Notes: a model not told the origin generated them from the letters alone. 64,000 nucleotides of DNA from Psammoneis japonica (GCA_008632985.1 QPGO01000058.1:1-64000), one strand, 5' to 3'; counted from the stretch's first letter, positions 1 through 57,249 are shown. Numbers and translations are program-made.

Positions 1-106
1 GTTTGAGAGCACAAAACGCGCACCACATGGCGCACACAGTGCACAGTCGTGCACACGCTGGTTTGGCCTTTCTTGGAGATTTTTTTTTTGTTGTTTTAGG
101 CCAGGC

Positions 107-450
107 TGTTGAACAGACAAGTCAATGTCACCAAAAGGGAATCCTCTGAGGTTTCCTGTGCTGCTCATTGCACTTGTCCTGGTTGCCATTCTTGCAATGT
201 AAAAGGGCACCTCAACCTGCTGATGGTGCACCAGCTGACGCGCGTGCAACTCTCGCACAAACCAGACGCATGGCTCACTCTAAAGAGTGAGAGCCGCTGC
301 AAAAAGAAGGTTGGAAGGACTGGCAACAAATGCCCACTCATTTCCAATGTGTCATCCAGCTAACCATGTCAGGATCCAAAGCACCCTCTCTTCAGCAGAT
401 GTGGTGCTTCCAGGTCTCCTGTGGCTCCCACTCTCGTCCAGAGATGCTTG
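107..450. repeat. LTR-like direct repeat (left copy), similar to 6535-6885
   Basis: 107-185 'tgttgaac...agtcaatgtcaccaaaaggga.tcctc..aggtttcctgtgc..ctcattgcacttgtcctggttg' recurs at 6535-6610. 340-450 recurs at ~6783-6885. Both begin TGTTG (reads ...CAACA on the element strand). True LTR length is unresolved. Confidence 0.6.
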
Positions 451-3400
451 AACACAATCCTGCTGCTGCTGCTGTCGATGTGTCAGGGCTTGTTCCTCAC
501 ATGCTGGAGCTGTCCCATCAGGTGTCTCTGCATTGAACTCATTGACTCAATCTTTTTGTTCATCATCTTTCAACTTGGGAAAATGCGACATCTTGTTGAG
601 CACGTCTGTGACATCTCGATCACATTCCATGAACTCACAAAACGAGGATGACACACACGATGCACAGCAATTCTGTGCCACTGAGTTCTTGTCATTGCAA
701 CCAACCAATCTGCAACCACAATCCAACCATTGATCACTTTGAGATCTGACACAAAGAATCCCATCTTTGCTCTCTGGTCCACTTTAAATGGGACCTTGGC
801 TTGACAATGTCGCGACCGAAAAATGTTGCTGGCTTGCATGCATCCAAAAGACAAACCCATCTTTGTCTCACACCAGTCCATGATGGACCATGTCACACTC
901 ATTCTCCTTTGAATTGAGCTTCACAAGCAGGTCAAAAACACCCTTGCTGTTCTGCCACATTTGGGACAGCTGACTCTTGACTCATCAGCAGTGTGATGAC
1001 ATCTCATCTGCCCAGTGCAAGTTGAAGGTTCTGGATCTGGCAACGCATTGATCCAGCAAACTCATCTTGAGCTTGTCATTCTCTTCACAGTTTTAGCAAA
1101 CATGTCTGGCCTTGTAATTTTTCATCAAAACAAAACATTTGCCAGCACTCACTGGTCTTGTGCGCATTCCTTCCGTGCATCTTGGCTTCTCCCATGACAC
1201 TCTCATCATCATGTGTGGAGAACATCAGCACAGCAGCAGACACACACCTCAGCTGACTGTGTGCCCAATGCCTCACTGTGCTTTCATAAAACTCTTTCAT
1301 GGTGCAATGTGTCTTTGCCTCCACAATTCCTCCCACACTGACTCAAGTCTCTCAATCTCCACATGCAGCACATTCTCTCTGCCCATGTTCTTTCTTTTGT
1401 CTGCACCTGTCATCAATTGATGTGAGTCAGCAGCATCCCATCTTGTGTGTGGGTCAATGCATGGTGACATCCTTCTGCTTGCCAACCACTCCACATGAGC
1501 TCATCTGATGTAGAGCTGAAACCTCCTGCTGCTCTCTGCAATGGGTGCTCTGGGTGCGGGTTTGTTGCACTCAGCACCCTGCTCATTGGCGGTCCCATTG
1601 GGTGGATTCTTTGTCTCTCAAAGAACTTTGGCCAGCAGTTGCCAGGCCATTTCTGTTCCATGGGCTCAAACCATGCAGCACTGGCATGGATCTCATTGAC
1701 AATGCACTCTTCCACAATTGTTGTTCTTTTGGCACAAATTATGTGCACAGGTCTCAGGGCTCTCCTCTCACCTCATGTTTGTGTTGAATGTTGAGCTGTC
1801 AGGGATCTTTCACCCACATGCATCAGAACTCTCATTTGACATCACAAAGAGCAGGTCTCACACCTGTTGTGCTTGAAATTGGCAGCCCACAACAGCTTCT
1901 TTAAACTTTCAGAGCTTCTTTCTTTGTGATGGCTTGGTCATGAAGTCTCCTGGCATGTCATTGGCAGGACAGCATTGCACTGGCAAGTTGCCCTTCTCAA
2001 TCTCATTGGCAACAAAGAAGTGGCAAATGTTGAGTGCTTGTGATTGCTTGCCAGCACTCTTTTGTGCCCATCAGTCTCCAGTGGGATCATGGCACTCTTG
2101 TTGTCCTGGCACAGGATGTTCTTGTTGATTGGATTTTCTTGGTGCTCCATGAGCAGCTTGGTCTGCAGTGTCATGGTCATGGCATTGTCAACTCCAACAA
2201 GTTCAGCTTCTGTGCTGCTTTGGGCATTGAGCTTCTGGTGCTTCAAGGTGGCCTGCACTGCTCCGTCACCCACAGTTGTGACTCCTCCAGCAAGACTCTT
2301 GAAACTGGGATGTGCTGCAAATGATGTGTCCACATGCCACTTGACAACTCAGAGGCCCTTCATGCTCAATGCAGTGACTTTGTTTCTTGTCCAATTCAGA
2401 CACTTGAGACAATGGACGACCAGCTTCCTCCAGCCCTTGTTGGCAGGAGCTCTCACTTGTGTGCACAATGTGGTGACAGTGGGGCACATGTTTGTCTGGT
2501 CTCTCATGGACAGGAACAATCCCTTGGCCACCCATGCATGGAAGGTCTGAGCCTTTTTGTCTGATGATCTTGTTCCACAGGTGTCAAATGTCTTCTCTCC
2601 ACAGAATCCATGCTCTTTGTCTTTTCCAGAGACTCATCAATCATCTTTTGAACACAGCCTGCCATGTCAGCTTTCACTTTTTCTTTCTGACCAAAGTCCA
2701 GGGACATGCCAAGACAATCATGTCTCTTCCCTCACATGCAGCAATGGCTTCACCATGGCTGCCACACATCTTGTTTGGCCAGCTCAGGAACTCATCATTT
2801 GCTTTTGGGTTCTTGTGACTTGGCAACAGGTTGTCCACATGAAATTGAATCATGTGCTGCTTGTCATTGACAGCACAATTGGCAATGCAGGGGTTGCATG
2901 GGTCAAGATTAAATCCCATCTTCTCCAAGTCTTTTTGATGCTTGTTGCACCACAGAGCAGAGCCACAAGTGGCACGCTGCAAATGGCTCCAATGACTTGC
3001 ATGCAGGTGACTCTCTTGCCTTCTCAGGGACCACATGAGGTCTGCACAGGTTGGGATCAATGCTCACAAGCATGTCCACAATCTTTCATGGGCATCAACA
3101 ATCTCACAGTCATGAGTGTCCCCTCCTGGGATGCAGCGGGGCTGGCTGACTTGTCTTTGTCCAGCCATTCTTGGGTCAGCTTGCATCAAGGCTGCCATGG
3201 CCTTGGTCCTTTCAGTTGGGGTCATGTCCTTGACCAATGTTGGTGCAAAGCACACTTGGTCATGAATTTGTTTGATTTCTTTCTGCAAGGCATCATGCCC
3301 CTTTTGGCCAAACACTTTGAGACCTTCTTGGAGCAAATGTTTCTGGACAGAACTTGTGCTGTTTCCACTTTGGAGTGGGTCATCAATGTCACACATGAAG

Positions 3401-4253
3401 TGTGCAAGTGCCATTGCTGTCTCTGCTTTACATTCAATGTCGTCCCTCAGATTGGGGCTCATGTTGGCATGCAAATGGTGTGGCAGGACTCAAGCTTGCA
3501 TTGCTTCTTTGCCATCTTTCCAATTTCTGTCACTCCTGCAAAGCAAACTTTCTTTTCTCTGTGTCTCTGTGATGTCATGTTGAAGGATGTTTTGCTTCTT
3601 TTTGTCACTCCACCGGGCATGGCTCTTGCTTCTTCCTCCAATCATTGTCCTTCCCATTTGTTGTCATCCTGGGAATTGTTGTCTTCTCCACACTCTTCAT
3701 TGTTGCAGTTTTCATTCTGTTTGGCTTCTTGCTCCTTGTGAGCTCAGTGCTGTTGGTTGCCACTGGACCTTTCATTGGCCAGCATTTTGTTTGCTTCTTT
3801 GCATTCATCATCATCTGAGTCAGGTTTCTCCATGCAGTGTTTGGCTTCTGACTCAACTGCGCAGTTTGTGTCATTTTTGCTGTCATCATTTTTGCTTTTG
3901 CAGTCTTGTCATCTTTGTTGTTGAACTGTCACTTTCATGTTTGCTGTTGTCCACTTGCCCTGCAGTCCAATCAACATTGCGCAGCTCATCTCCACATTTC
4001 CCTGTGAACTTGAGATCCTTGATGCCTTGTTGCATGGCCATCTCCTTGACAGCCACAACATGTGTGTCAGTTGAGGGTGCCAAGGTGCACTTCTTGCACA
4101 GGTTCAATGTCTTCCCCATGCACAGGTTCGCAGCACAGCAACTGCCCTTGGGTGAGTCAAAATGTGGTTGCAAGCAGATGCTGCCTGTCAACACCATGCA
4201 CTCCCACAGTGTTCATCTCATCATTCTTGATGTGGGAAATGACAAGTTTCCCA

Positions 4254-4941
4254 AACTCAAGCTGAAAATTTTGCAGTTGCAGTTTCTTTGTTGTGCAATG
4301 GCATGTGGACTGCAAGTGTCAGAAATCTCTTCCTTTTGCAGGTGCGTGTTCAACATGACAGTGTTCTTCATCACAGCTTGTTTGCACATCAGCCTGGGTG
4401 TTGTCTTGTGCAGCATGTGATGGTGGGTGGTGGCTGAGGATTGCTTCTTGATGGTCTGCGAGCTTTGCTCAACTCTGGGAGGGAACTCAAGCTGAAAATT
4501 TTGCAGTTGCAGTTTCTTTGTTGTGCAATGGCATGTGGACTGCAAGTGTCAGAAATCTCTTCCTTTTGCAGGTGCGTGTTCAACATGACAGTGTTCTTCA
4601 TCACAGCTTGTTTGCACATCAGCCTGGGTGTTGTCTTGTGCAGCATGTGATGGTGGGTGGTGGCTGAGGATTGCTTCTTGATGGTCTGCGAGCTTTGCTC
4701 ACTCTGGGAGGGAACTCAAGCTGAAAATTTTGCAGTTGCAGTTTCTTTGTTGTGCAATGGCATGTGGACTGCAAGTGTCAGAAAAATCTCTTCCTTTTGC
4801 AGGTGTGTGTTCAACATGACAGTGTTCTTCATCACAGCTTGTTTGCACATCAGCCTGGGTGTTGTCTTGTGCAGCATGTGATGGTGGGTGGTGGCTGAGG
4901 ATTGCTTCTTGATGGTCTGGGAGCTTTGCTCAACTCTGGGA
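4254..4941. repeat. Near-perfect tandem triplication (~230 bp unit) inside the Copia integrase region
   Basis: Unit 'aactcaagctgaaaattttgcag...caactctggga' starts at 4254, 4484 and 4713. Confidence 0.95.
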
Positions 4942-6534
4942 ACATGGTCTTTGGCATTCACATGGATTGGCTCTAGATTCACACCATCCACAACTTCTGC
5001 AAGCATGTCCTTGAACTTGGGATTGCACTCAACAAAGTCTGTCTTTAACAGGGCCATGTTGTGCCATCAGAGAGTCATGTCCAAGGCTTTGCACATGTCT
5101 TCATGCTTCTTGGAATTCAGTCTCACACTCGATTGGTGCTTGATTGTTTTGTCAATTGTGCACAGTGTCTTGACACTGCACACTTCTACATTGTCAATGC
5201 AGAGGGTCATGTCTTCTCTCTGCTTCTTGCAGATCTCAGGTGGAATGGCAATGACATCATTCCTCTCACAGGAACAGTGCACATGCTTGGTCTTGCCTTT
5301 TGGTGCATCTGTCGGTGGACCTCACATGGCCACCATTCTGTCCACATCTTCAGGTGGGATGGACAGGTTTTTTGCCTGATTAGATTGCAGGAACAGCTTG
5401 AAATTCCTTTGCACTGGGTGTTCCAGCCTCTCAGTGTGGTCTCAATGCTTCCTCAGCATTCACTGCCTCTTGTTTGGAGCAGCCTTTCATGCTCTGTTTC
5501 ACAGTTGGAACAACAGTTCCTGATGCACTCCTGTGCTTCTTGTTGGTCTTCTTTGCAACCTTCTTGTCCTTCAACAGCATCATGCTCACATGTGACTCAT
5601 CTTGTTGGAGCTCTTTTGCATGATCAAAGAATTGCCAGCTTGGCACAAGTGCAAAGGCACACAGTCCAATGTCGTTGACTTTGAACACCATGACAGCATT
5701 CTTGATTAATCCAACCAACATCTTCTTGCTGTTGAGACCTTTGCTTGTTGCATCCTGTTGATTCTTAATCTGGATGGGTGGTCATTCAATGACTTGTCTT
5801 CCAATTGCTTTGCTTCCAGCATGTGGAATGGGTGTTGACCTCTCATGGAGTTAAACATGAGTGACTGGATCAGCTTCAGCAGTTTGAACAGGTCATCTCT
5901 GATCCCCGCACAACTGGGATTGGTCTGCACTCTCTGCTTCATTGGCTTGGCACAGCAATCATCTGGGATTGCTGCAAATGCAGTGCTCTTGTTCTCTTTG
6001 AGCTTCTTGATTTTCTCATTGCAGCCATGTAACTTGATCTTGCACTCTTGTTCCAGTTGCCTTTCTTCTCTTGCCCTTTTGTCTTTCAGGGTCTGGTGGT
6101 CTTTGTCTGAGCTTTCTGGTGCTTCTGTCATTGCCTTTGCTGGTGTTGGGCTCTTGCTGGCAAACTTCATGCATTTCATGTCTTCTGGGGACCTTGCCAG
6201 ATGCATGCCCTGGTCACAGTCCTTCTGTGTGTGGTTGTCAATTTTCTCCTTGACCTCTTTGAATGTTGCATTGCAGGAGTTTGCTGTTCATCAATGCATG
6301 GATGAAACCTCATTTCTGGCCTGAAGCTCTTCTTGGGGCTGGTCTTCTTGATCTTGTTTCAGCAAGACTTCTGGCCTCTGCCACCCCTGCCTTGATTGCA
6401 CAATTGCATCCTCAGCCTCCAGTGCTTCCTCCTCCTCTGCCACCAACAATGCAGGTTTTCTGTTTCTGATGATTGAACAGAGGTCAGTGCCACATCATGC
6501 ACCAAACGCAGTGAGTGTGACTCTGTGGAGTGAA

Positions 6535-6885
6535 TGTTGAACCAAGTCAATGTCACCAAAAGGGAGTCCTCCAAGGTTTCCTGTGCCACTCATTGCACTT
6601 GTCCTGGTTGATGTGGCAGCTGTGATTTACCTGGTGGAAGCTCTCAACAAGTTTGTTCTTGCAGCGCAAACAGCACTGCAGACACAGGTCTCCACAACAC
6701 AATTTGTGCAAGCCAGATGATTCACTCCAAAGAGGGAGCTAAAAACAACGTTGATGAGATTGACGACAATTGCACATTCATTTTCAAAGTGTCATCCAGC
6801 CCACTGCATCAGGATCCAAAGCATCTGCTCTTCAACAGATGTGCTTCCAGGTCCATCACATTCCCCACTGCTTGTCCAGATGCTG
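6535..6885. repeat. LTR-like direct repeat (right copy; 5' LTR end of the minus-strand Copia)
   Basis: Matches 107-450 in two blocks and lies just upstream of the gag-like region on the minus strand. Confidence 0.6.
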
Positions 6886-7661
6886 CAAGACAGGCAGGCA
6901 TGCCAGCACTGCCTGAGCCAAGGACGACTCTCCCTCTGCCATGCTGCACCCAGTCTCCTCTCAGCCATGGGCTCTTTCACTTTGAGGTGGGCATGTGCCA
7001 CACAGCACAGCACATCACAATGCAACTCTGGTGGGGGCAGGGGCCGTGGAAAAGGTGCAAGAATGTTTGACATGGGTGCACATGAGATGCTCACAAATGA
7101 ACACATGCAGCCTTTGGTCATCTCATGTGCTCTTCCTCTGGCAACAAGGTGTGTGGGGGGCAACAAGTGGGGGACAAGTCAGCTGGGCCAGATCTGCAGC
7201 TCTGTGGAGTGCTGCAACCCCGGCAAGTGCAGAGAGACATTGCTCTCCAGCACACTGTGCAAAAAACAAAGTTTTGGAGGTGGGAGGGCATTTTTGGCTT
7301 TGCAGACTGTTCCTGATTTTGGGTTGCCACAGCTGGCCACAGCATGTGCTGCAAACAGCTGTCCAGAGCGAGGCTGTCTTCCAGCTGCACCACTTCCTCT
7401 CACTGTGCCTGGGCATTCTGCCACATGTCCTGGCTCCTTGCTGAGAATTTCTCTCATGCACTTGGTGGGAAAAACAAGCTCTCCTTTGCACAGACTTTCC
7501 CACACAAATTGACATCCAGCAGAGATTTGCCAATTTTGATTGTCCATTTGAGAGAGAGAGAGGCTGCCTTGATTTGAACCCATTCAAATCAAATGGTCTG
7601 TCTGCCCCACAGCAACAAACACTCAGACGACAACACTCACCACATGTTAACAACAACATCC

Positions 7662-7707
7662 GGCCACTGTTGAAGCCACCATGAATGTCTCACTCCTGAC
7701 TTCAGCC
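7662..7707 (+). ncRNA. Highly degenerate hammerhead ribozyme copy
   Basis: GGCCA-CTGTTGA-AGCCACCAT-GAAT-GTC...GAC-TT-CAGCC; homologous position in the repeat module. Confidence 0.4.
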
Positions 7708-8230
7708 AATGTTGTTGTGCCTGCCATTGCTTCTGAATGGTTTGACAAATGTCTGAAGTGCAGCCATTCATGTGCTCAGATCCCAATGACACCAAATTAA
7801 GGATGAAACCACTGCACCTTTGACTTCTTGCCCGAGGCCACAAGCCCAGCAAACTGCAGCCACTTTTTCATAAAAAGCACATGGTCTCATCTTTGGTGAC
7901 ACTGCAAGAGCACCAACACCCCAAGACAACCCTCCAATCTTTCCACATGTGCCATTTCACCCAAATGATCTGCCATCCAGTGAATTGCAAAAACTTTGGA
8001 AGGGAACCACAACCCAGGCACCCAGCCTGCTCACCACCACTCTCCCAGCTCTGCAATCATGCCTGCCAGCACATTGGACTTGACTGCATGATCATCTGCT
8101 GCAGTCACTCATGCAACCTTGGCAACCTCTTTTGTTGTGCCACAACCTTTGCATCTCAACCCCCCCAGTTTTGTCCCACCGGATTGCAAACAGAAAGGCC
8201 GCTGAGAGAGAGAGAGAGAGAGAGAGAAAG

Positions 8231-8271
<41 letters not shown>

Positions 8272-9742
8272 CAGCAAGAGACTCCTCAGTGACTGGCTCA
8301 CTGCATGCAAAGCTTGCATCACTCCAATGGAATGTGAGCACATCAAACACTGTTTTGAACAAACTGACAAAGACCCGTTTCCTGTCTTCTGCCTCACTTT
8401 AAAGGTGCACAAGCCCCGCCACTGCAATCTTGGCCAATCGCACCCACCAGTGGCAGCCTGCTCTGTGGCTTGGGCATCTGGGTAGACAACAAGCTCCAGA
8501 AGATTGCTCACTGCCAACAATCACACTTCAAGAGCTCCCTGGACCTGAAACAAGCACTCGTCCAAATGGAAACACCACCGAATTGCCTGCTCTTTGTGTC
8601 TGATGCTGAGGCCTGTCACTTTAACATGCCCACCAACAAAGCGCTCCAACTGATTGCTTCCCATCTTCAACATCACATGAACAACTGCAATGATGTGCCA
8701 ATGGAAGCCCTCATCAAAGCACTCCAAATTGCAATGAACAACAATGCATTCACATTTGGAGACACTGCCTGGCACCAGTGCAATGGAACCGCCATCATGG
8801 GCACACCACCTGCCCCTCCATGCACCACCTTGTGCCACACACTTCACAAAGACATGCTCCTGGAGGAGTTTGGCTCCCAGCTTTTTCACTGCAAATGATT
8901 TGTTGATGACGTCTTTGGCACCTGGCACATCACCAACACCAACACCGACAATGCCACCTGGGAAGCATTCACCTCCAGGCTCAATGACTTTCACATCACC
9001 TGGATCACAAGTGCCCGAAGAGCCATCAAGTTGACTTCATGGACCTTAAAATCTCACTCCAAGGCTCCCACCTTCACACTGCCCTTTTATGAAAAAGAAA
9101 TGAATCCACACGTGCACATTCCACCCCACTCAGATCACCTGCCGGAGTGCTCACACTGGCCCAATCATGGGCATGCCCTTTTGCTTCAAAAATCTTTGCT
9201 CCAACATTGCCAACACAAAGGCAAAAATGAGACTGCTCCACCTTTGACTACAAGCTGGAGGCCACAAGCCTGGCAAACTACAACCACTCTTCCGAAAGGC
9301 ACACGACCTCATTTTTGGAAATTCTGCCAGAACAACACTGGAACACAAGTCGAATCCCATCTTCCTGCACATCCCTCATCACCCAAATGACCATCCAGTG
9401 AATTGCAGAAGATTTGGAAATGTGCAATGGCCACTCCTCCCTGCTCACAACCCCTCTCTAACCTGCAAAACTGAGCCAGACAATGCATCAGCCTTGAACG
9501 CATGATTGCGTGCCACACCAGCCACTCACACAACCTCGGAAACACCTTCTTTCTCACCGCAAACTTTGCACCTCCCAAGGCCCCCCTGTTTTGTCCTGCT
9601 GGATTGCAAACAGGGCAGCCCCTGAGAGACAAAGAGAGACAGAGAGATGGAGATTGAATTCGAATTGATCCAATCAACTTGTCCACCCTCCTTTGGATCT
9701 TTTCAATGCAACAACCCCAGCCCCATGTTAACAACAGCAGCC

Positions 9743-9790
9743 TGCCGCTGATGAAGCCACCACAAAAGTCTTGTTCTCCTGACTTTGGCC
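9743..9790 (+). ncRNA. Degenerate hammerhead ribozyme copy
   Basis: TGCCG-CTGATGA-AGCCACCAC-AAAA-GTC...GAC-TT-TGGCC. Confidence 0.5.
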
Positions 9791-10058
9791 AACACCATTG
9801 TGCCTGCCATTTGCTGAAATGGTTGGACAAACATCCAATTGAGCAGTTCCACCTCAGCCACTTGTGTCATTTGTTTGTCACATTTGATGGAAAATTGGCT
9901 TCACCAATTTTGGTTGTTTGTTCAAGAGAGAGAGACAGACAGAGAGAGAAACAGTGTGGCAAATTGATTTGAAAAAGCAATCAATCAAGTCCACCCATCT
10001 GTCCTCCACCACTTGGATTTTTTGTGCAACAACCTCAACCACGTGAACAACAACAGGC

Positions 10059-10104
10059 AGCCACTGATGAAGCCACAGCAAAAGCCTCACTCCTGACTTT
10101 GGCC
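10059..10104 (+). ncRNA. Degenerate hammerhead ribozyme copy (CGAAA>CAAAA)
   Basis: AGCCA-CTGATGA-AGCCACAGC-AAAA-GCC...GAC-TT-TGGCC. Confidence 0.5.
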
Positions 10105-10920
10105 AATGTTGTTGTGTCTGCTGTTTGTAGAAAAAGTTGAACAAATGTCCAATTAAGTGGCTCCACCTTGGCTGCTTGCATCACTTGTTTGTTGCAAATG
10201 ATTTGTTGATGACATCTTTGGCATTTGGCACATCACCAACACCGCCACCAACGCTGCCACCTGGGAAGCATTTGCCTCCAGGCTTGACAACTTTGACATT
10301 GCCTGGATCACAAGCACCACCTGAAGCTGCCAAGTTAACTGCATGGACCTCACAATCTCACTCCAAGACTCCCACCTTCACACTGCCCTTTACAAAAAAG
10401 AAATGAATCTGCACATGTGCATCCCACCTCACTCAGCCCACCCGCCTGGAGCACCCACTGGCCCAATCATGGGCATGCTCTTCCACTTCAAAAATCTTTG
10501 CTCTGACACCACCAACGCAAAAGAGGAAATGAGACTGCTCCACATTCAACTGCAAGCCCGAGGCTGCAAGCCCAGCAAACTGCAACTGCTCTTCCAAAAG
10601 GCACACGACCTCATCTTTGGAAATGGAACCAGAACAACACTGGAACACCAGTCAAATTCCATCTTCCTGCACATCCCCTGTCACCCAAATGATCCACCAT
10701 TGAGTGAATTGCAGAAGCTTTGGAAAGGTGCAATGGCCACCCCTCCCCACTCACAACCCCTCTCAAACCTTCCAAATTACGCTCAACAACGCATTGGCCT
10801 TGACCGCAGGATTGCACACCACAGCCGCTTGCACAACCTTGGAAACCTTCTTTCTTGCCACAAACTTTGCACCTCCCAAGCCCTCCAGTTCCATCCTGCC
10901 AAATTACAAACAGGGCAGCC

Positions 10921-10977
<57 letters not shown>

Positions 10978-11080
10978 GACAGAGAGATGGCAATTGAACT
11001 TGAATTGTCCCAATCAACTGGTCCATCCTCCTTTGCATCTTTTTAATGCAACAACCTCAACAATGTGAACAACAGCAGCC

Positions 11081-11128
11081 AGCCGCTGAAGAAGCCACTG
11101 CAAAAGTCTCATTTTCCTGACTTTGGCC
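11081..11128 (+). ncRNA. Degenerate hammerhead ribozyme copy (CGAAA>CAAAA)
   Basis: AGCCG-CTGAAGA-AGCCACTGC-AAAA-GTC...GAC-TT-TGGCC. Confidence 0.5.
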
Positions 11129-11254
11129 AATGTTGTTGTGCACGCCATTCACTGAAACAGTTGGATGAATGTCAGATTGAGCAGCTCTGCCTTGGCCACT
11201 TGTGTCATTTGTTTGTCACATTTGATGGAAAATTGGCTTTGCCAAGTTTGATTG

Positions 11255-11299
<45 letters not shown>

Positions 11300-11411
11300 A
11301 ACAGCACGGTGAGTTGATTTGAAAAAAGCAATCAATCAAGTCCACCTGTCTGTCCCCCACCACTTGGATCTTTTTAACACAACAACCTCAACCACATGAA
11401 CAACAACAGCC

Positions 11412-11457
11412 GGCCACTGATGAAGCAACTGGGAAAGTCTCACTCCTGACTTCAGCC
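11412..11457 (+). ncRNA. Hammerhead ribozyme motif copy (core intact, stem II mutated)
   Basis: GGCCA-CTGATGA-AGCAACTGG-GAAA-GTC...GAC-TT-CAGCC. Confidence 0.6.
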
Positions 11458-11569
11458 AGCATTGTTGTGCCTGCTGTTTGTCAAAACAGTTGGACAAATG
11501 TCCAAACCAGCAGCTTTGCCTCAGCTGCTGGTGTCATCTGTTTGTCACATTTGACAGAGAATCAGTTTG

Positions 11570-11607
<38 letters not shown>

Positions 11608-11717
11608 CAAGACATGAGCTGATTTGAAAAAACAATCAATCCAACAATCTTGCCTGTCCTCCTCCACCATTTGGATCTTTCAATGCAACAACCTCAACCA
11701 CGTTAACAACAGCAGCT

Positions 11718-11763
11718 GACCACTGATGAAGCCACTGCAAAAGTTCCACTCCTGACTTTGGCC
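11718..11763 (+). ncRNA. Degenerate hammerhead ribozyme copy (CGAAA>CAAAA)
   Basis: GACCA-CTGATGA-AGCCACTGC-AAAA-GTT...GAC-TT-TGGCC. Confidence 0.5.
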
Positions 11764-11869
11764 AATGTTGTTGTGCCTGCCATTTGCCAAATGGTTGGAC
11801 AAACATCCAAACTGGCAGCTCCTGCCTTGGCCACTTGCATTCTTGTCAGCAAAATTTGATGGAATTGTT

Positions 11870-11919
<50 letters not shown>

Positions 11920-13804
11920 ACCAAAAAACCTTCAATCATTGCTTGGTCTTGGCCTGAAGTTTGTTCCTGCACCACGATTCACCAACAATGGGAAGTCCTC
12001 CAAGATCCAAGAACAATCACTTGGATGATTCAAACAAGACCTTGACAAATGCAAACATTTTGTCAGTGCATCAATCGACAATGACGATGGAGATTACAAC
12101 CCCAGAATGTGCCTCTGGTCTAGCTGGACATCTCTCCCTTGGAAACTCACCAACATTGTCAAATGATGCCACACTGCCTTCAAGAAACAAGTCACCAACC
12201 TGCTTGTGAAATGCAGAGGCAGAACCAATCTCCTGCCCCACCAACACCATGCCCTCACTTGCCTCTGCAAGCAAGATGACTTCACAACAGCCCAATGCAA
12301 CAAGAGCCAGGGACCCACCATCGTTGAAACAACTGAACACATCTCAGAGATGGCACTCCACAGCCATTTTAACAACACCAACGCACATTGATTCTTGAGT
12401 GAATTTGAAGCCAGAATCCAAGAACGCTGCATCAAGAGACTCCTCAGTGATTGGCTCATGACGTGCAAAGCCAACCTCACTCCAATGGAACACAAGCACC
12501 TCAAACACTTTCTCAAAACTGTCAAAAACCTGTTTCCTGTCTTCTGCCTCACTTTAAAGGTGCGCATGCCCCCACCACTGTGATCTCAACTGATCATCTC
12601 TGCCAGTGGCAGCTTTCTGTGGCTTGGGCATCTGGGCAGATGACAAGCTCCAGAAGGTTGCTTGCCACCAATGATCAAACTTCAAGAGCTCCCTGGACCT
12701 GAAACAAGCACTCACTCAAATGGAAATGCCACCAAACTGCCTCCTCTTCACATCTGATGCTGAGGCCCATTGCTCTGATGAACCTGCCAACAAAGCACTT
12801 CGACTGATTGCTTCCTGTCTTTGATGTCACAAAAACAACTGCAATGATGCACCAATGAAAGCCCTTGTTAAAGCACACCAAATTGTGATGGACAATGATG
12901 TGTTCACATTTGGAGACACCACCTGGCACCAGCACAATGGAGCCACCATGGGCACACCACCTGCCCCTCTGCATGCCACCTCATGCTGCGCACTTCACAA
13001 AGACATGATCCTGGAGGAGCCCAGCTCCCAGCTGTTTTGCTGCAAATGATTTGTTGATGAAGTCTTTGGCATCTGGCACATTGCAGACACTGCCACCACC
13101 ACCACCACCACCTGGAAAGCATTTGCCTCCAGGCTCAATGACTTCAACATTGCCTGGATCACGAGCGCCTGAAGCCACCAAGCTGACTTTGTGGACCTCA
13201 CAATCTCACTCCAAGGCTCCCACCTTCACACTGCCCTCTGCAAAAAAAATGAATCCATGTGTGCACATCCCACCACACTCAGCTCACCCACCTGGAGCAC
13301 TCACCGGCCCAATCATGGGCATGCTCTTTCACTTCAAAAATCTTTGCTCCAACACCACTGATGCAAAAGCAAAAATGAGACTGCTCCACCTTCGACTGCA
13401 AGCTCAAGGCTGCAAGCCCAGCAAACTACAACCGCTCTCCCAAAAAGCACACAACCTCATCTTTGGAAATGCAACCAGAGCAACACCAGAACACCAGTCA
13501 AATCCCATCTTCCTGCACATCCCTTGTCACCCAAACAATCCACCATTGAGTGAATTGCAGCAGCTTTGGAAAGGTGCAATGGCCACTCCTCCCTGCTCAC
13601 AACCCCTCTCAAACCTTCAAAATCATGCTCAACAATGCATCAGCCTTGACCGCATGATTGCATGCTGCAGCCACTGGCACAACCTCAGAAACCTTCTTTC
13701 CTGCCGCAAACTTTGCACCTGCAAACAGGGTGGCCCCTGAGACAGAGAGACAGAGACAGAGAGACAGAGAGACAGAGCAGAGAGACAGACAGAGCGACAG
13801 ACAT

Positions 13805-13850
<46 letters not shown>

Positions 13851-13944
13851 ATGGCAACTGAACTCAAATCATCCCAATCAACTCATCTGTCCTCCTTTGG
13901 ATCTTTTTAACACAACAACTTCAACCATGTGAAGAACAGCAGCT

Positions 13945-13992
13945 GGCTGCTGATGAAGCCACTGCGAAAGTCTCACTCTCCTGACTTTGGCC
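13945..13992 (+). ncRNA. Type I hammerhead ribozyme motif (best-preserved copy) in PLE pseudo-LTR
   Basis: GGCTG-CTGATGA-A-GC(cact)GC-GAAA-GTC(tcactctcct)GAC-TT-TGGCC: intact catalytic core, 2-bp stem II, stem III GTC/GAC, stem I GGCYG/YGGCC. Confidence 0.75.
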
Positions 13993-14877
13993 AATGTTGT
14001 TGTGTCTGCCATTTGCTGAAACAGTTGGATGAATGTCCAATTGAGCAGGTCTGCCTCAGCTGCTTGCACTGTTTGTTTGTCACATTTGACAATCGTTTGA
14101 GAGAGAGAAAGAGAGAGATGGATTGTTGCAGCAATCATGCTGCCATGAAACCTGGGCATTGAACATGCCAGACAAGATGTGTCAAAACCTTTGCTGTATC
14201 TTGGGCCACAGCAGCAGCAGCTTTGAAGCCTCAGTTGTTGGATCCTTGTTGATGAACAACTTTTGCAATTGCCCAACAGAGAAAACACTTGTTTTGATGA
14301 GATGTGAAATTTTGAGCAGGTCACTGTGCTTTGTCATGGCATCCAAGGTCTGTGTGCCTGCTCCACCTCTCAACCCCATGCCAACAGCAAGGGCTGGAAA
14401 ACACAAACACACAAAATGGTGGGGGCAAGACAATCTTGCAAAGAAACTCAAATGCCAGACCACCACCTCTGCTGCATGTTCAATGAACAGTGCTTGTGCA
14501 GCTGTGGTCTTTGTTTTGGGGGGTGACAAGCACAGGCGGCGGCCTTGGAATGCAGGGCACTTGCTGGTGAAAAGAGGTGCTGGAAATCAAAAAGGCACTG
14601 ATTTTTTTTGAAGTGCCAATTTTGAAGGTGCTGAACACAACTTGATCCAAACAGCCATCAAAGGATCTTTTTTGTGGTGCAGCACAAGCTCTGTTGTCTG
14701 CTTTTCAGCTGGATGGTGAGCCATCTCCTAAAATGAGGGAGCATGACTCTTCACCACATTTTTTGCTGTGTGCATGTCTCTTGCAAGCATGACAAAGGTT
14801 TGCAAACATTTGATTTCTATGGCCTCCTAATTGTTTGTCCCACAGCCTCAAAGTTGACAAAGACAACTTGAGTGCTG

Positions 14878-15840
14878 CAACAACAATGGTTGGGAAGCAA
14901 AGGCCTTGTCTTGTGACAATGCAGCACCCTGTCTCTTTGACATGACTGGGTTCTTTGGCCCAGCCACCCACCTGCAAGGACAAGAAGACCATCTGTGTGA
15001 CAGTGCAAGTGCTCTGTTGTCTTGGGATGGCATTGGATGACTCCATTGGGGGTCCCAGAGGATGCAATGACAACAATGGTTGGGAAGCAAAGGCCTTGTC
15101 TTGTGTCAATGCAGCACCCTGTCTCTCTGACATGACTGGGTTCTTTGGCTCAGCCACCCTGCCCACAGAGACAAGAAAACCATCTGTGTGACAGTGCAAG
15201 TGCTCAGTTGTCTTGGGATGGCTTTTGGTGACTCCATTGTTTGACTCCAGAGAAGCCAACAACAACAATGGTTGGGGAGCAAATGACTTGCCTTGTGTCA
15301 ATGCAGCACCTTGTGTCACTGGCATGACTGGGTTTGGCCCAGCCAAGAACCAATTTTTGCAAGATGGACAAGGGAACCATCTGTGTGACAGCACCAGAGC
15401 ACTCAGTTGTCTTGGGCTGGCTTTTGGTCACTCCATTGGATCCCAGAGGAGCCAACAACAACAATGGCTGGGAAGAAATGGCCTTGTCTTTTGTCAATGC
15501 AGCACCTTGTCTCTATGACATGACTGGGTTTGGCCCAGCCAAGAACCAATTTGCAAGAAAGACAAGGGAACCATCTGTGTGATGACACAAGCACTCAGTT
15601 GTCTTGAGATGGGCACAAGAGACTGCCCTGAGGAGGCAAGAACAACAATGGTTGGGAAGGAAAAGCATGGTCTTGGGCCAATGCAGCTTTTTTTCTGTCT
15701 GATGTGATTGGTTTGCTTTGGCCCAGTTGCCTCACTTGCAGAGACAAGGGAGCTTTCTGTGCCATGTGACAGTGCAAGCACATGCAGTTGTCTTTGGGTG
15801 GCCTTGGGTGCCTCCATTGTGTCCCAGAGGAGCCAGCAAT
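14878..15840. repeat. Diverged tandem repeat, ~185-196 bp unit x5
   Basis: 'caacaatggttgggaagcaaaggccttgtcttgtg.caatgcagcacc' recurs at ~14881, 15071, 15263, 15459 and 15643. Confidence 0.9.
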
Positions 15841-17989
15841 GACCAGGGCAGGGAGTCACTGAGTGGAAATTCACAGTGTTGCCTGTCTCTTGTTTGGATG
15901 GAAAACCAAGAAAGAGCAGAAGAGCAAGACCCACCTTCAAGTTGCCCACTTTCTTTACAAGGTTGGTCTCCAAAGTCATCATTTCATGGGCATGAAGGGT
16001 CTGTTTCTGAGCTTTCTGGAGAGAGGTGATTGTCTTGTTGGCAGCGGCAATTTTTGAACACACCAAATGGCAAAAAGGTGTTGACTGAGGTCCCGGAGCT
16101 GGGAGTGTGCAGCATGAGTGTCAAAAATTTCAATTTCAACAAGAACACATCAATGTGACAAAATCAAACTTTTGAATGCATGTGCAACATTGACAACTGG
16201 ATGATTCATTGAGTCAGTTTCAAATCATTCAAACCATCATGTTGCAACAAAATCATTGTGATTTTTAAAACAAAGTCATTGCCAAAAAAGAGATTCCAAC
16301 AGGAATCAACTGGCAGGCAGGCTCGCATTTTGGCCAAAAACATGAATTGCTGTTGCTCCCTCACAAGACACAAAAAATGCAAACTCAAGTTGCATCTGAT
16401 GTCTGACAATGAGAGCAGTGGGAACAGGGGCAGCAGCATTGCAAGTGGAACAGAGAAAAATGCAGGACACAAGGTGAGAAAACAAGTGGCGAATGCATGG
16501 AGATCGGGCACACAATGCAAACAACTGACACTTGCGCGCATCTTTGCACACAGATGTCTGGACATGCAACCTGAGCTGCAACGGAAGACAGGCAATGGGG
16601 AAGGACACAAAGGTGAGCAGAAGCAGCACATGAGACAACATTGTAAGAAAAACAAGAAGTGCACAAAACCTGATCATTGGCACAAAGTTTTCTCTTGTTG
16701 CAGGCAACGCTTTGGCCTGCCAAACAGAAGGAACACAAGGCAGCAGATTGTTGCAGAATGATGTCATTGCCTGGTGCAAAGAACAATCATGGAGAGAGCA
16801 AGAGTTGCTGCAAGGGAGAGAACACAAGGGCCAAACAACACATTTGCTGCATGGGAACTGTGAAGGACAACAGGAACTGGTGGAATGCAGGAGAAAAGAA
16901 GAGCGGGAGAAAGGGAGCATTGTTTGGTGTGCAGTGCTGCAGAAATGACAATGTGGAACAATTGCAAATCAGATGACAAGCAGCGCACAGGCGATGTGCA
17001 ATCAGGTCAACAAGACAACTGAGCGCATCATCATTGTCAGAAATGAACAATGTCAGAAAGTTGTCATGAACACATGGTTGCCAAGACAGAAATGATGCAA
17101 GTGTCAAGTTTCATCATGTGTCATTTCCTGCTTGGAAGGTCACTTTAATTGTGGACAGATGAAAACAATGTTGAAACAAGCAGATGTGAAAAATTGACAA
17201 GAATGTGCGCACAATGTGACTGATTTACATTGGCCATGTTAAACCCCACTTGGAAGGTTCAAACAACAATTGAACTCCCTTCATTGATGATTGTTGAGGA
17301 CTTGTTAAGAACACATGATTCTGAACAAGAGAATGTGAACTCTGAACAAGAGCAAATGTGTTTTCCAGATGACCTGGACATGGCAAAGGAGAGTGTGGAA
17401 CAAGTTTGATCCACCCACAACTGTTGAGACAGCTGTTGAGGCCAGTGAATGGGTTTGCAAGGGAGCGCATGTAAACTGTGTTCCAAGGGCCAAAGGATGG
17501 CACACTCCTGGTGACACTGAGGAATGTCAGACAAGAGTGTTGCTCAAGCAAATTGCAGCTGCAAACATTGAGCTCAATGAACCATCATCCTCTCTGCAAC
17601 TGCCAAAAATGTGCAACAGGAGTGAGGTTTCACTTCTCAATTGACATCATTTGAGTGAGGACAAGCACGAAGCCATGCTTGATGCAATCCACCAGCGCAA
17701 GTCACTCAATTGTTTTGAGGAATGTCTGGACAAGGAAGAGCATGACAACAGCAAAACTGGTGAGTTTGAGGAAGAGAATGACGATGAGGAGGAAAGCATG
17801 GCAGAGGACAGTGAGGAGGAAAAGAGCACAGCAGGGGACAGAGAAAGCAATGAGTGTCAGGAACAAAATGATGAAAGGGAAAACAAACAAACACTGTGAT
17901 TGTCGCTTTACATCACATGACTGGATGAACCTTCCTGCACAAGAGCTTTCCTTTTGCCATTTGCCTGCTGTTTCACTGCCCTTGGGAAG

Positions 17990-18880
17990 TTCAAATTGGT
18001 GCACCATGGCCACTTGTTTCTGGACATTTTTTTGCCACATTCTTTGTCTCATGTTCCTTGTTTCCAAGACACCAATTCAAGCACTTGATGCCCTTTGCTG
18101 GCAATGCAAAATGGTGATTGGAGTCAAAGATCCACCCATGGTGCAAGGAAATGCAGCGGTTGTTCACCCAATGGCACAAAGTTGTGCAGCCATCATTGCA
18201 GGTCATCACATCAAATTCACCATCCACTTCCAAGGAAATGATTTGGTCAAAACTGCCACAAAATTTCATGTTTGAGTTTGTCAGTGGGAAGTTTCCCTTC
18301 AAACAGTCTTTCAGCATGTGCTTTGCAATTAACGTGCAATTGTTGTCAGTGGTGGCATGGTTGGCAGAGGTTTCAACATGAGATGCAATGCAATCTCTCA
18401 CTTCCAGGTTGCCAACACAATTAAAAACACTGGGCAGGGACAAAAACATGCAAGTCTCTTTGTGTCTTTGCAAGAATTTTGGCACGTGCTTTGCAAACAA
18501 CATGCAATTGTTGTCAGTGGTGGCATGGTTGGCAGAGGTTTCAACATGAGATGCAATGCAATCTCTCACTTCCAGGTTGCCAACACAATGAAAAACACTG
18601 GGCAGGGACAAAAACGTGCAAGTCTCTTTGTGTCTTTGCAAGAATTTTGGCATGTGCTTTGCAACAACATGCAAGTGTTGTCAGTGGTGGCATGGTTGTC
18701 AGAGGCTTCAATGTGAGATGCAATGCAATCTCTCATTTCCAGGTTGCCAGCACAATGAAGAACACTGGCCAGGGACAAAAACACACAAGTGTCTTTGTGT
18801 CCTTGCAAGAATTTCACAGGCAGGCCACTTGTCAGCAAATTGGCATCCAATGATGTCAACATGTTTCCTTCCGGCAACAT
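17990..18880 (-). pseudogene. Eroded ORF with a possible papain/C39-like cysteine-peptidase signature, probably part of an unclassified TE
   Basis: 'FLQGHKDTCVFLSLASVLH' (Q-x4-C motif) followed by 'CISLHHGWIFDSNHHFALP...LNWCLG'. Lies in CpG/TpA-eroded DNA. Confidence 0.35.
18315..18814. repeat. Tandem triplication, 168 bp (56 codon) unit
   Basis: 'caYgtgctttgcaa' at 18315, 18483 and 18651; the minus-strand translation repeats 'KFLQRHKETC.FLSLPSVF.CVGNLEVRDCIASHVETS'. Confidence 0.92.
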
Positions 18881-35167: not shown

Positions 35168-35234
35168 TCCAGACGCCTGTAGCTATTCCAGTCGCCTTCA
35201 CTACTGAGTTTTCAAAATGCCGAGATTCTGAAAG

Positions 35235-40525: not shown

Positions 40526-40592
40526 TTGGCACGTCCATAGGCGTCAGTCAAAGCGCTGGTATATCGACCTACCTGAAAGAAGGTAGATTGAT

Positions 40593-45832: not shown

Positions 45833-45949
45833 GGTTGTTGCACTTTTCGGGAATAAATTCCACACCGCTTATTTCACCAATAAACCCTCTAGAGATGACA
45901 AGACACAATGCGACGACTCAAGAAACCCTGTCACGACCTGACTGACCTC

Positions 45950-57240: not shown

Positions 57241-57249
57241 CCACCCTCA

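What the first reader, a model, noticed from the sequence alone, without database searches (positions are those of the whole stretch)
7850..13740. PLE paralogs record the TpA>TpG/CpA changes independently in each copy
Seen at homologous sites: TAT at 9088 and TAC at 10391 versus TGC at 13239 (LYEK motif). 'aatTACGct' at 10775-10783 versus 'aatCATGct' at 13621-13629, where TA>CA and CG>TG both occur in one 4-mer. CAC at 10748 versus TGC at 9442 and 13594 (two outcomes of one ancestral TAC or CGC). 'aaactAcaa' at ~9274 and ~13424 versus 'aaactGcaa' at ~7851 and ~10577. Inference: mutation happened after insertion, copy by copy, on either strand, so it is a host process and not the elements' own codon bias.
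Basis: partly seen in the sequence, partly recalled or inferred. Interest (0 to 1): 0.75.

Follow-up and report, generated by a model that had tools for sequence, protein, structure and literature searches.

The report
Repeat blocks purged of TA, CG
In this diatom-like genome, repeat-rich blocks have had almost every TA and CG step rewritten to TG or CA, separately in each copy of a dead retroelement, which points to a host DNA-editing process reported so far only once, in an unrelated alga.

Summary
All quoted coordinates are correct. Four 5'-truncated copies of an RT-only retroelement and seven ~280-bp modules lie head to tail at 7600-14100. Between copies A and B, 55 adjacent TG-versus-CA double differences make up 110 of the 241 differing positions (7.0 expected). 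A gene duplicate of similar divergence in the same window has 6 in 514. Intact homologs fix the direction. Of 41 conserved-Tyr codon sites, 19 are now TGY, 12 CAY and 2 TAY. Of 31 conserved-Arg sites, 19 are TGN or CAN. So TA and CG are ancestral, and each copy resolved them independently on either strand. The process covers whole blocks (1-~20150 and ~46080-61290): TA falls from 39.5 to 3.0 per kb and CG from 56.0 to 6.3. Edges are sharp, and the YpR total and base composition are unchanged. TTAA is spared. Best reading: a host, DNA-level, domain-targeted A:T>G:C change at TpA plus CpG decay. The closest precedent is the TpA hypermutation described for Bigelowiella natans in a 2026 preprint. 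The PLE label is only partly supported.

The parts
1..20150 (.). TA- and CG-depleted block 1. It runs off the window's left end. CG becomes dense from about 19982 and TA from 20157.
   Evidence: 0-6 TA and 0-21 CG per kb, against 28-59 TA and 43-75 CG per kb in 20001-46000.
7600..7800 (+). Repeat module m1 (partial)
   Evidence: blastn; MAFFT
7803..8156 (+). RT copy D, the most 5'-truncated (C-terminal ~120 codons)
8204..8271 (.). (GA)n microsatellite between copies D and B
8272..9573 (+). RT copy B, 5'-truncated, with frameshifts and in-frame TGA
   Evidence: HMMER query
9646..9925 (+). Repeat module m2
9960..10192 (+). Repeat module m3, abutting copy C
10188..10874 (+). RT copy C, 5'-truncated. 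It keeps TAC at 10391 and TACG at 10778.
10986..11262 (+). Repeat module m4
11310..11562 (+). Repeat module m5
11615..11864 (+). Repeat module m6
11901..13740 (+). RT copy A, the longest. It starts about 20 codons into the RT ORF, directly after (GA)n.
13850..14095 (+). Repeat module m7
18314..18814 (.). 168-bp x3 tandem repeat inside block 1. Its unit differences are largely of the same YpR class.
   Evidence: 4 of 6, 8 of 18 and 8 of 17 differing positions
20157..46080 (.). Normal-composition gene block: CEMIP-like paralogs, Efg1-like, sarcosine-oxidase-like and DnaJ-C11-like ORFs
21859..25628 (+). Gene paralog used as internal control. It pairs with 28782-32582 at 84.8% identity.
   Evidence: 6 TG/CA doubles in 514 differences
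46080..61290 (.). TA- and CG-depleted block 2. TA is gone from about 46080, and CG declines gradually to about 46590.

Best explanation
The host genome carries sharply bounded, repeat-rich domains in which two context-specific transitions have run almost to completion on the chromosomal DNA. A:T>G:C at TpA gives TpG or CpA, depending on which strand is hit. C:G>T:A at CpG also gives TpG or CpA. The four dead RT copies and seven modules at 7600-14100 are 5'-truncated, head-to-tail insertions of one RT-only retroelement family. Each was rewritten separately, site by site and on either strand, after the copies had separated. This is shown. Also shown: the TpA process depends strongly on the base 5' of the T (A > G > C >> T), so TTAA is nearly immune. 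It is more complete than CpG loss and reaches 50-500 bp further toward the genes. Inferred: the CpG part is ordinary deamination of 5-methylcytosine in methylated transposon DNA. The TpA part is an enzymatic, chromatin-targeted base editing, most simply deamination of adenine to inosine in double-stranded or transiently opened DNA. It would be the same kind of process that mutation-accumulation lines revealed in Bigelowiella natans. The effect is permanent inactivation of the elements (Tyr>Cys/His, Arg>stop/Cys/His/Gln), with no change in overall base composition.
For: Direction comes from the codon table against 45 intact homologs. Tyr is kept at 2 of 41 sites (19 TGY, 12 CAY) and Arg CGN at 8 of 31 (11 CAN, 8 TGN, of which 5 are TGA). 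Summed, the 15 residue types other than Tyr, Arg, Val, Ile and Leu are kept at 243 of 326 sites. Independence: there are 55 TG/CA doubles in A-B against 7.0 simulated. Six of 10 multi-copy Tyr columns are discordant. The modules give 207 against 39.8. Both strands are hit and there are no tracts: 19 TGY vs 12 CAY, and the runs test on 55 A-B sites gives 28 runs against 27.8 expected. The process is domain-wide with conserved mass. TA goes from 39.5 to 3.0, CG from 56.0 to 6.3, TG from 72.6 to 111.2 and CA from 76.5 to 119.6 per kb. The YpR sum is 244.7 vs 240.1, and base composition is equal to within 0.01. Edges are sharp. It is not repeat-induced in general, because the gene paralogs show 6 doubles in 514 differences. 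It is not the element's own bias, because 79 intact relatives have TA o/e of at least 0.45. Context: TTAA 39 in the depleted blocks vs 37 in the normal blocks (survival 0.85), ATAT 0 vs 106, ATAC 2 vs 167. It is not a base-calling artefact: Logan contigs of run X1, at word depth of about 55, reproduce the depleted sequence. One example is a 1129-bp contig over 6581-7709 with 5 differences. Precedent: hypermutation confined to TpA>TpG/CpA in integrated viral DNA of B. natans (bioRxiv 10.64898/2026.01.13.699255; Results and Discussion read). CG methylation of TEs in diatoms is reported in PMC9998398 (abstract and passages).
Against: No methylation, chromatin, mutation-rate or enzyme data exist for this organism, and no whole genome is held. 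The enzyme and the targeting signal are therefore pure inference. Editing during retrotransposition cannot be formally excluded for the RT copies themselves. Outside the RT array nothing in the depleted blocks could be identified: 95 ORFs gave no credible Pfam family. So it is not shown that non-mobile DNA is affected. Variant contigs give no contrast: 14 of 30 listed differences in the depleted part are among TA/CG/TG/CA, but so are 7 of 10 in the normal part (40 of 259 rows were shown). The control gene paralogs are under selection, which would also remove such changes. The expected ~56 discordant sites assume that the ancestral element had the TA+CG density of the normal block.
Confidence: 0.8

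Rival explanations
1. Editing happens before integration. The element's RNA or first-strand cDNA is deaminated during each retrotransposition, as with ADAR or APOBEC editing of retroelements, so every new copy arrives already mutated in its own pattern.
For: The copies are separate 5'-truncated insertions with a common 3' end. Independence between copies is predicted equally well by this model.
Against: RNA-only or cDNA-only editing should hit one strand, yet conserved Tyr gives 19 TGY and 12 CAY, and Arg gives 8 TGN and 11 CAN. Depletion is uniform across 15-20 kb blocks, including tandem repeats and unidentifiable sequence, with edges that do not follow element ends. Units of the 168-bp tandem repeat differ mainly by the same class of change. 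CpG loss needs DNA methylation.
Confidence: 0.07
2. One bifunctional system edits both pyrimidine-purine steps. A single deaminase acting on both A and C, or one oxidase family acting on T and 5mC, is recruited to the same chromatin and drives TA and CG alike to TG/CA.
For: The two depletions share the same blocks, and their edges coincide within 50-500 bp. Their losses are of similar size and cancel in base composition. The B. natans preprint cites an amphioxus ADAT2 reported to edit both A and C in DNA (secondary citation, not read).
Against: The two are separable. At all three edges there are zones that lack TA but keep CG (19982-20157, 46080-46590, 61240-61294). TA is more fully erased than CG (2 of 41 Tyr kept vs 8 of 31 Arg). 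Flank dependence differs: about 100-fold for TA and about 6-fold for CG. The B. natans text read does not mention CpG at all. 5mC deamination alone explains the CpG part.
Confidence: 0.12
3. There is no dedicated enzyme. The TpA bias is a passive property of late-replicating or poorly repaired heterochromatin, for example an error-prone polymerase or a repair bias.
For: The pattern is domain-wide and symmetric between strands, with no clustering of outcomes.
Against: TpA loss has outrun methyl-CpG decay, the fastest common spontaneous change. Strict dinucleotide specificity, a roughly 100-fold flank effect and near-immunity of TTAA look like a recognition motif. In B. natans the same signature reached about 6e-7 per site per generation, and only in some lines.
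Confidence: 0.08
4. It is an artefact or the intrinsic composition of the DNA. Either modified bases are miscalled in the assembly, or the blocks are foreign DNA, or element codon usage, that never contained TA or CG.
For: Runs X1-X3 come from one sample and may be the assembly's own data, so they are not independent.
Against: Contigs at k-mer depth of about 55 reproduce the sequence. Catalytic Tyr and Arg are replaced and the frames are broken. Paralogs are discordant TG vs CA. Intact relatives have normal TA and CG.
Confidence: 0.02

Closest known systems
TpA-restricted hypermutation of integrated NCLDV and virophage DNA in Bigelowiella natans (Mettrop et al., bioRxiv 10.64898/2026.01.13.699255; Results and Discussion read)
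   Same: Only A:T>G:C at TpA, giving TpG or CpA according to strand. It is confined to foreign or silent DNA with sharp regional limits. TpA-poor, CpA+TpG-rich clusters are enriched for RT and transposase domains. An adenine deaminase is proposed.
   Different: The host here is diatom-like (all named homologs of two genes are diatoms), not a chlorarachniophyte. The targets are retroelement-rich blocks, not viral inserts. Depletion is near saturation (TA o/e 0.02-0.1, against 0.45 reported there). CpG is lost in parallel, whereas that text contains no occurrence of 'CpG', 'TTAA' or 'flanking'. Flank dependence and TTAA immunity are seen here. No direct rate measurement exists here.
Repeat-induced point mutation (RIP) of fungi
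   Same: Irreversible transition hypermutation that kills transposons and leaves dinucleotide-skewed, gene-poor blocks next to normal gene blocks.
   Different: RIP changes C to T, mostly at CpA, and so creates TpA, whereas here TpA is destroyed. GC content is unchanged here. A 3.8-kb duplicated gene pair is untouched, so duplication as such is not the trigger. The host is not a fungus.
CpG decay through 5-methylcytosine deamination in methylated transposons (TE CG-methylation in diatoms: PMC9998398, abstract and passages)
   Same: CpG>TpG/CpA, restricted to repeat DNA, with CpG o/e of 0.0-0.24 in the blocks.
   Different: It explains only about half of the lost steps (49.7 of 86.2 per kb). 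It has no bearing on TpA.
ADAR or APOBEC editing of retroelements before integration (PMC4866542, search listing only)
   Same: Copy-by-copy transition hypermutation of retroelements. ADAR prefers a 5' U.
   Different: Both strands are hit equally and whole domains are affected. C>T is confined to CpG.
Endonuclease-deficient Penelope-like elements (Athena, Coprina; Craig et al. 2021, PMC8557442, passages read)
   Same: RT-only ORF2 of about 650 aa with an invariant DK motif upstream of the RT core, and a separate ORF1 in intact relatives. Copies are 5'-truncated in head-to-tail partial tandems, with insertion next to microsatellites.
   Different: Rfam finds no hammerhead ribozyme in the window array or in 16 intact relatives. 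There are no telomeric repeats, only (GA)n. There is no Pfam or PDB link beyond a weak RVT_1 match and a group-II-like RT at E 0.41.

Membership tests
TpA>TpG/CpA hypermutation of foreign DNA (B. natans type) | Changes are A:T>G:C and fall on TpA, giving TpG or CpA | tested here: met
   Of 41 conserved-Tyr sites, 19 are TGY, 12 CAY and 2 TAY. Val>GCA at 5 of 15 sites and Leu>CCA at 4 of 95 fit TpA>CpA. TA falls from 39.5 to 3.0 per kb while TG and CA rise.
TpA>TpG/CpA hypermutation of foreign DNA (B. natans type) | Confined to particular foreign or silent regions, with the rest of the nuclear DNA normal | tested here: met
   The 1-kb profile shows edges at about 20157, 46080 and 61290. Gene paralogs are unaffected.
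TpA>TpG/CpA hypermutation of foreign DNA (B. natans type) | Directly measured, about 1000-fold raised de novo rate in those regions | not testable with these tools
   Needs mutation-accumulation lines or pedigrees. The variant contigs gave no contrast.
Fungal RIP | C>T at CpA (or another CpN), producing a TpA excess and AT enrichment | tested here: not met
   TpA is almost absent and base composition is unchanged.
Fungal RIP | Any duplicated sequence above a length and identity threshold is hit | tested here: not met
   The 3818-bp paralog pair at 84.8% identity has 6 TG/CA doubles in 514 differences and normal TA and CG. Selection on these genes is a caveat.
Methyl-CpG decay | CpG depleted with matching TpG/CpA gain in repeat DNA | tested here: met
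   CG falls from 56.0 to 6.3 per kb. Of 31 conserved-Arg sites, 19 are TGN or CAN and 8 still CGN.
Methyl-CpG decay | The DNA is 5mC-methylated at CpG | not testable with these tools
   No bisulfite or native-read data are available. Known for TEs of other diatoms (PMC9998398).
Pre-integration RNA or cDNA editing (ADAR/APOBEC type) | Strand-asymmetric changes relative to the element's sense strand | tested here: not met
   TGY 19 vs CAY 12, and TGN 8 vs CAN 11.
Penelope-like elements | RT with the PLE-specific DKG motif upstream of the core RT motifs | tested here: inconclusive
   D173, K174 and G177 are invariant in 37 homologs (CDKNLGP). Craig et al. note DK with a variable third residue in some clades. 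No PLE reference sequences were available for a direct comparison.
Penelope-like elements | GIY-YIG endonuclease (EN+ clades) | tested here: not met
   No such Pfam hit in 10 full-length homologs. The ORF ends soon after NLGNLLSYRKL. If it is a PLE, it is EN-deficient.
Penelope-like elements | Hammerhead ribozyme motif in the terminal repeat (all EN- PLEs, per PMC8557442) | tested here: not met
   Rfam at E<=1 on window 7000-14500 and at E<=0.1 on 16 of 79 relatives' loci gave no hammerhead. Many contigs end close to the ORF, so 3' ends may be missing.
Penelope-like elements | Partial head-to-tail tandems (pseudo-LTR) and 5' truncation | tested here: met
   The window array is D-B-C-A with a common 3' end. 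Locus L011 has a 3' RT fragment, then ORF1, then a full RT.

The most novel reading that the evidence does not exclude
Diatom-like algae possess an active, chromatin-guided DNA base-editing defence. It recognises 5'-VTA-3' (TTAA exempt) and converts the adenine on either strand. It works alongside CpG methylation and erases transposons to saturation without changing GC content. Together with Bigelowiella, this would make TpA editing an ancient genome-immunity system across the SAR group, with a defined sequence motif that could lead to the enzyme.
Probability: 0.45. Interest if true: 0.85.

Novelty: new variant of a known kind. Interest (0 to 1): 0.72.

Why it matters
Outside fungal RIP and methyl-CpG decay, programmed hypermutation of genomic parasites is almost unknown. 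TpA-directed A:T>G:C change was first reported in one 2026 preprint on a chlorarachniophyte, from a small number of new mutations. This window shows the long-term end state of the same signature in a different lineage. Whole repeat domains have lost about 92% of TA and about 89% of CG. The borders are knife-sharp, there is an internal control, and the polarity is read from protein homologs. It also shows a flank rule (VTA, with TTAA immune) that any candidate enzyme must reproduce. It shows as well that such domains can hide from GC-based scans, because the two losses cancel. And Pfam-based TE annotation fails on them, finding no RT in the window's broken copies and only one weak RVT_1 match among 10 intact homologs.

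Tried and rejected
Several steps led nowhere or were set aside.

- No whole genome is held, so no search for deaminase, TET/JBP or DNMT genes and no genome-wide map was possible.
- Pfam on the degenerate RT translations gave no RT.
- Pfam on 95 ORFs of at least 110 aa from the depleted blocks gave nothing credible, only two sub-threshold hits on one ORF. These were 95 of the 106 such ORFs. The 11 left out lie in the RT array.
- Rfam found no hammerhead in the window array or in 16 of 79 related loci. A first Rfam call exceeded the size limit.
- A PDB profile search gave only a group-II-like RT at E 0.41.
- The ESM Atlas gave leads only: clusters carrying DUF8422, HTH_animal and RVT_1, commonest in rotifers and arthropods.
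- ORF1 of intact relatives has no Pfam family and no match in the window.
- Cluster look-up gave no organism names.
- I tested for strand-coherent tracts of TG vs CA outcomes and found none (z 0.07 for A-B; z 2.29 for B-C, towards alternation).
- Sequencing runs: no RNA holder is listed. Run X2 has no cover over 5001-20600, and X3 laid nothing. These blanks are not used as evidence.
- Variants between X1 contigs and the window showed no contrast between the depleted part (14 of 30) and the normal part (7 of 10), so they were dropped as evidence for ongoing change in place.
- None of the 150 listed homologs is Tyr-poor (minimum 1.3% Tyr). No hypermutated relatives were therefore found, but the search patterns contained Tyr and so favour intact copies.
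- Earlier notes of this scan held nothing on this genome or on a similar eukaryotic case.
- Literature searches for such a process in diatoms or other algae found only the B. natans preprint. bioRxiv supplements are closed, so its mutation tables could not be checked for flank effects.
- Biased gene conversion was rejected, because it favours W>S changes and cannot give CG>TG/CA.

Full report
WHAT THE WINDOW IS. The window is eukaryotic. A 26-kb block (about 20157-46080) carries long ORFs for CEMIP/G8/CBM-like proteins, an Efg1-like protein, an FAD oxidase and DnaJ-C11-like proteins. For the oxidase (39317-40525), every organism-named hit among the 120 listed is a diatom: Thalassiosira, Seminavis, Nitzschia, Mayamaea and a truncated 'Pseud...' label I read as Pseudo-nitzschia, at 39-46% identity. 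The best unnamed hit is 53%. For the DnaJ-C11-like ORF (43562-44791), the named hits are Fragilaria and Cylindrotheca. I therefore call the host diatom-like. Its own proteome is not in the collection, and no whole genome is held.

THE OBSERVATION. blastn with the longest copy finds four RT-like copies on the + strand: A 11901-13740, B 8272-9573 (81%), C 10188-10874 (86%) and D 7803-8156 (67.5%). All share a 3' end and are truncated at different 5' points. Seven modules of about 200-280 bp, separated by (GA)n, fill the gaps.

In the MAFFT alignment the commonest difference between copies is a two-base swap, TG in one copy and CA in the other. A-B has 1303 aligned columns and 241 differing positions. 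Of these, 55 TG/CA swaps account for 110 positions, and 138 of 241 lie in changes among TA, CG, TG and CA. Simulations that place each pair's own substitutions at random give 7.0 swaps on average, with a maximum of 14 in 500. The other five pairs behave alike: 15-24 observed against 2.4-3.1 simulated. The 21 module pairs give 207 against 39.8.

A built-in control lies in the gene block. Two CEMIP-like paralogs (21859-25628 and 28782-32582) are 84.8% identical over 3818 bp. They have 514 differences and only 6 swaps. A second pair has 3 swaps in 151 differences. By the same HSP-based count, A-B has 48 swaps in 220 differences.

DIRECTION. A HMMER search of 1.84 billion representatives with the RT core of copy B (TGA read as X) gave 1761 hits at E<=1e-3 and 28 at E<=1e-30. 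Full-length relatives are proteins of about 620-700 aa. I aligned 45 of them and mapped window codons onto the 221 columns with at least 60% consensus by tblastn.
- Conserved Tyr, 41 copy-sites: 19 TGY, 12 CAY, 2 TAY, 8 other.
- Conserved Arg, 31 copy-sites: 11 CAN, 8 TGN (5 of them TGA), 8 CGN, 4 other.
- Trp is kept at 14 of 14, Asn at 22 of 26, His at 13 of 17 and Phe at 22 of 32.
- Summed from the same table, the 15 residue types other than Tyr, Arg, Val, Ile and Leu are kept at 243 of 326 sites.
- Val is GCA at 5 of 15 sites and Leu is CCA at 4 of 95, as expected from GTA and CTA.

So TA and CG are the ancestral states and TG/CA the derived ones. Some copy B assignments near its frameshifts are imprecise.

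INDEPENDENCE. At conserved-Tyr columns where two or more copies are mutated, 6 of 10 show TG in one copy and CA in another. For Arg the figure is 2 of 6. The blocks have lost 86.2 TA+CG per kb. If each copy resolved every such site on its own with equal strand odds, A-B should show about 56 discordant sites in 1303 columns; 55 are seen. A-D, B-D and C-D also match (16, 15 and 19 seen, about 16 expected). A-C and B-C fall somewhat short (20 and 24, about 30 expected), which suggests some shared history. The order of outcomes along the alignment is random (A-B: 28 runs, 27.8 expected). Sites were therefore hit one by one, not in strand-coherent tracts.

IT IS A PROPERTY OF DOMAINS, NOT OF THE ELEMENT. 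The whole window splits into two states. Positions 1-~20150 and ~46080-61290 have 0-6 TA per kb. CG there is 0-13 per kb, except for 21-25 in the two edge kilobases (1-1000 and 46001-47000). The remainder has 28-59 TA and 43-75 CG per kb, with one intermediate kilobase (61001-62000) that spans the third edge. Pooled counts per kb, normal against depleted:

| Step | Normal | Depleted |
|---|---|---|
| TA | 39.5 | 3.0 |
| CG | 56.0 | 6.3 |
| TG | 72.6 | 111.2 |
| CA | 76.5 | 119.6 |
| Sum of the four | 244.7 | 240.1 |

The four base frequencies agree within 0.01, because the GC gained at TA offsets the GC lost at CG.

The edges are sharp. At all three, the TA-free state reaches further toward the genes than the CG-poor state: 19982-20157, 46080-~46590 and 61240-61294. 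Intact relatives of the element in 79 metagenome loci have TA o/e of median 0.65 (minimum 0.45) and CG o/e of median 0.89. That search favoured intact copies, because its patterns contain Tyr. Units of a 168-bp tandem repeat inside block 1 differ mainly by the same class of change (4 of 6, 8 of 18 and 8 of 17 positions). A 98%-identical 230-bp repeat shows almost none, so it arose after depletion.

A FLANK RULE. The surviving TA are not random. TTAA occurs 39 times in 34.6 kb of depleted DNA against 37 times in 28.3 kb of normal DNA (survival 0.85), and is scattered over both blocks. ATAT is 0 against 106, ATAC/GTAT 2 against 167, GTAC 3 against 86, CTAG 5 against 51 and CTAA/TTAG 18 against 78. 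An additive reading fits: each strand contributes according to the base 5' of the T, with A > G > C >> T. Both Tyr codons that survive in the RT copies are preceded by T. Surviving CG depends much less on flanks, ranging from 0.055 to 0.34, highest in GCGC.

ARTEFACT CHECK. One sample's runs hold the stretch. Contigs of run X1, at k-mer depth of about 45-73 in both the depleted and the normal parts, reproduce the depleted sequence. One example is 1129 bp over 6581-7709 with 5 differences. Another is 895 bp over 14012-14905 with 2 differences and 1 gap. Noisy long reads would not give such contigs, and modified bases do not alter accurate-read base calls. The run may be the assembly's own data, so this excludes miscalling but is not independent replication. 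Differences between these contigs and the window are of the TA/CG/TG/CA class in 14 of 30 listed places in the depleted part. They are also of that class in 7 of 10 places in the normal part (40 of 259 rows were shown). I draw nothing from them.

MECHANISM.

Shown:
- Two transition processes act, limited to TpA and CpG.
- They act on both strands and site by site.
- They acted after the copies separated.
- They are confined to bounded domains.
- TpA loss is more complete and more flank-dependent than CpG loss.

Inferred:
- The CpG part is deamination of 5-methylcytosine. Transposons of other diatoms are CG-methylated (PMC9998398, abstract and passages).
- The TpA part needs A>G on one or the other strand. 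The simplest chemistry is adenine deamination to inosine.
- It has outrun methyl-CpG decay and obeys a motif, so an enzyme is more likely than passive decay.

Exactly this signature was found by mutation accumulation in Bigelowiella natans. There, 230 of 231 new mutations in the two integrated viral regions were A>G or T>C (210 of 211 and 20 of 20), all of them on TpA. The rate was about 6e-7 per site per generation, and an ADAT2-like deaminase was proposed. That text does not mention CpG, flanks, TTAA or diatoms.

Editing before integration is disfavoured by the two-strand outcomes and the block-wide extent, but it is not excluded for the RT copies themselves. A single bifunctional system is disfavoured by the separable edges and the different completeness of the two losses. 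RIP is excluded by direction, and by the untouched gene duplicates, with the caveat that selection acts on those genes.

THE ELEMENT. Intact relatives are two-ORF units of about 3.5-4 kb. ORF1 is about 390-470 aa and has no Pfam family. ORF2 is an RT-only protein of about 640-670 aa. L011 shows a partial head-to-tail tandem. The profile has an invariant DK..G upstream of the RT core. This fits the PLE 'DKG/DK' motif described in PMC8557442 (passages). There is no GIY-YIG domain and no Rfam hammerhead. Pfam sees at most a weak RVT_1 match (E 0.0042 in 1 of 10). 'EN-deficient PLE-like' is plausible but unproven. The window array looks like repeated insertion of 5'-truncated copies into the (GA)n tails of earlier copies, with the modules as the 3' untranslated part. 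This last point is inference.

VERDICT. Relative to what is in print, this is a new variant of a process known from one preprint in another lineage.

Noticed in passing
window 19982-20157, 46080-46590, 61240-61294: At all three domain edges there is a strip that already lacks TA but still has near-normal CG. The TpA process therefore reaches 50-500 bp further toward the genes than CpG loss does.
   Followed up: partly
window 1-19980 and 46600-61200: TTAA is almost exempt from TA loss (39 in depleted vs 37 in normal DNA), while ATAT is gone (0 vs 106). Survival follows the base 5' of the T, in the order A < G < C << T.
   Followed up: yes
window 7600-14095 (modules m1-m7): The modules keep a near-invariant CTGATGAAGCCAC...AAAG string. 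It is followed by GTC...GAC and bracketed by complementary CAACAACA / TGTTGTTG and GGCC arms. The layout recalls a hammerhead ribozyme, but Rfam reports none at E<=1 and helix II would be only about 2 bp.
   Followed up: partly
window 20992-25628 and 27120-32582: A tandem duplication of a CEMIP/G8/CBM_4_9-like gene with its upstream part (82-85% identity). The two copies are separated by a 63-bp x12 PT-rich coding repeat at 27970-28724.
   Followed up: partly
window 39317-44791; proteins P0001-P0003, P0006 and P0293, P0296, P0297, P0300: Relatives of the sarcosine-oxidase-like ORF and of the DnaJ-C11-like ORF come from contigs of identical lengths (15033, 449239, 26684 and 15354 bp). The two genes are therefore probably neighbours in several related organisms as well.
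   Followed up: no
window 4254-4941: A 230-bp x3 tandem repeat, 98% identical, lies inside the depleted block and is itself free of TA. The duplication is younger than the depletion. The 168-bp repeat at 18314-18814 is older and carries TG/CA swaps.
   Followed up: yes
L011 1-5007; L002 111-3481; L006 331-3770: Intact metagenomic relatives of the RT carry an upstream ORF1 of 390-470 aa with no Pfam family. The ORF1s are 25-28% identical to each other. L011 holds a 3' RT fragment directly upstream of a full unit.
   Followed up: partly
window 1-20150 and 46080-61290: TA loss raises GC and CG loss lowers it by nearly the same amount, so the blocks are invisible to GC-content or GC-skew scans (GC 0.47-0.51 throughout). 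Because TAA and TAG are absent, the blocks also produce many long spurious ORFs in all six frames.
   Followed up: yes
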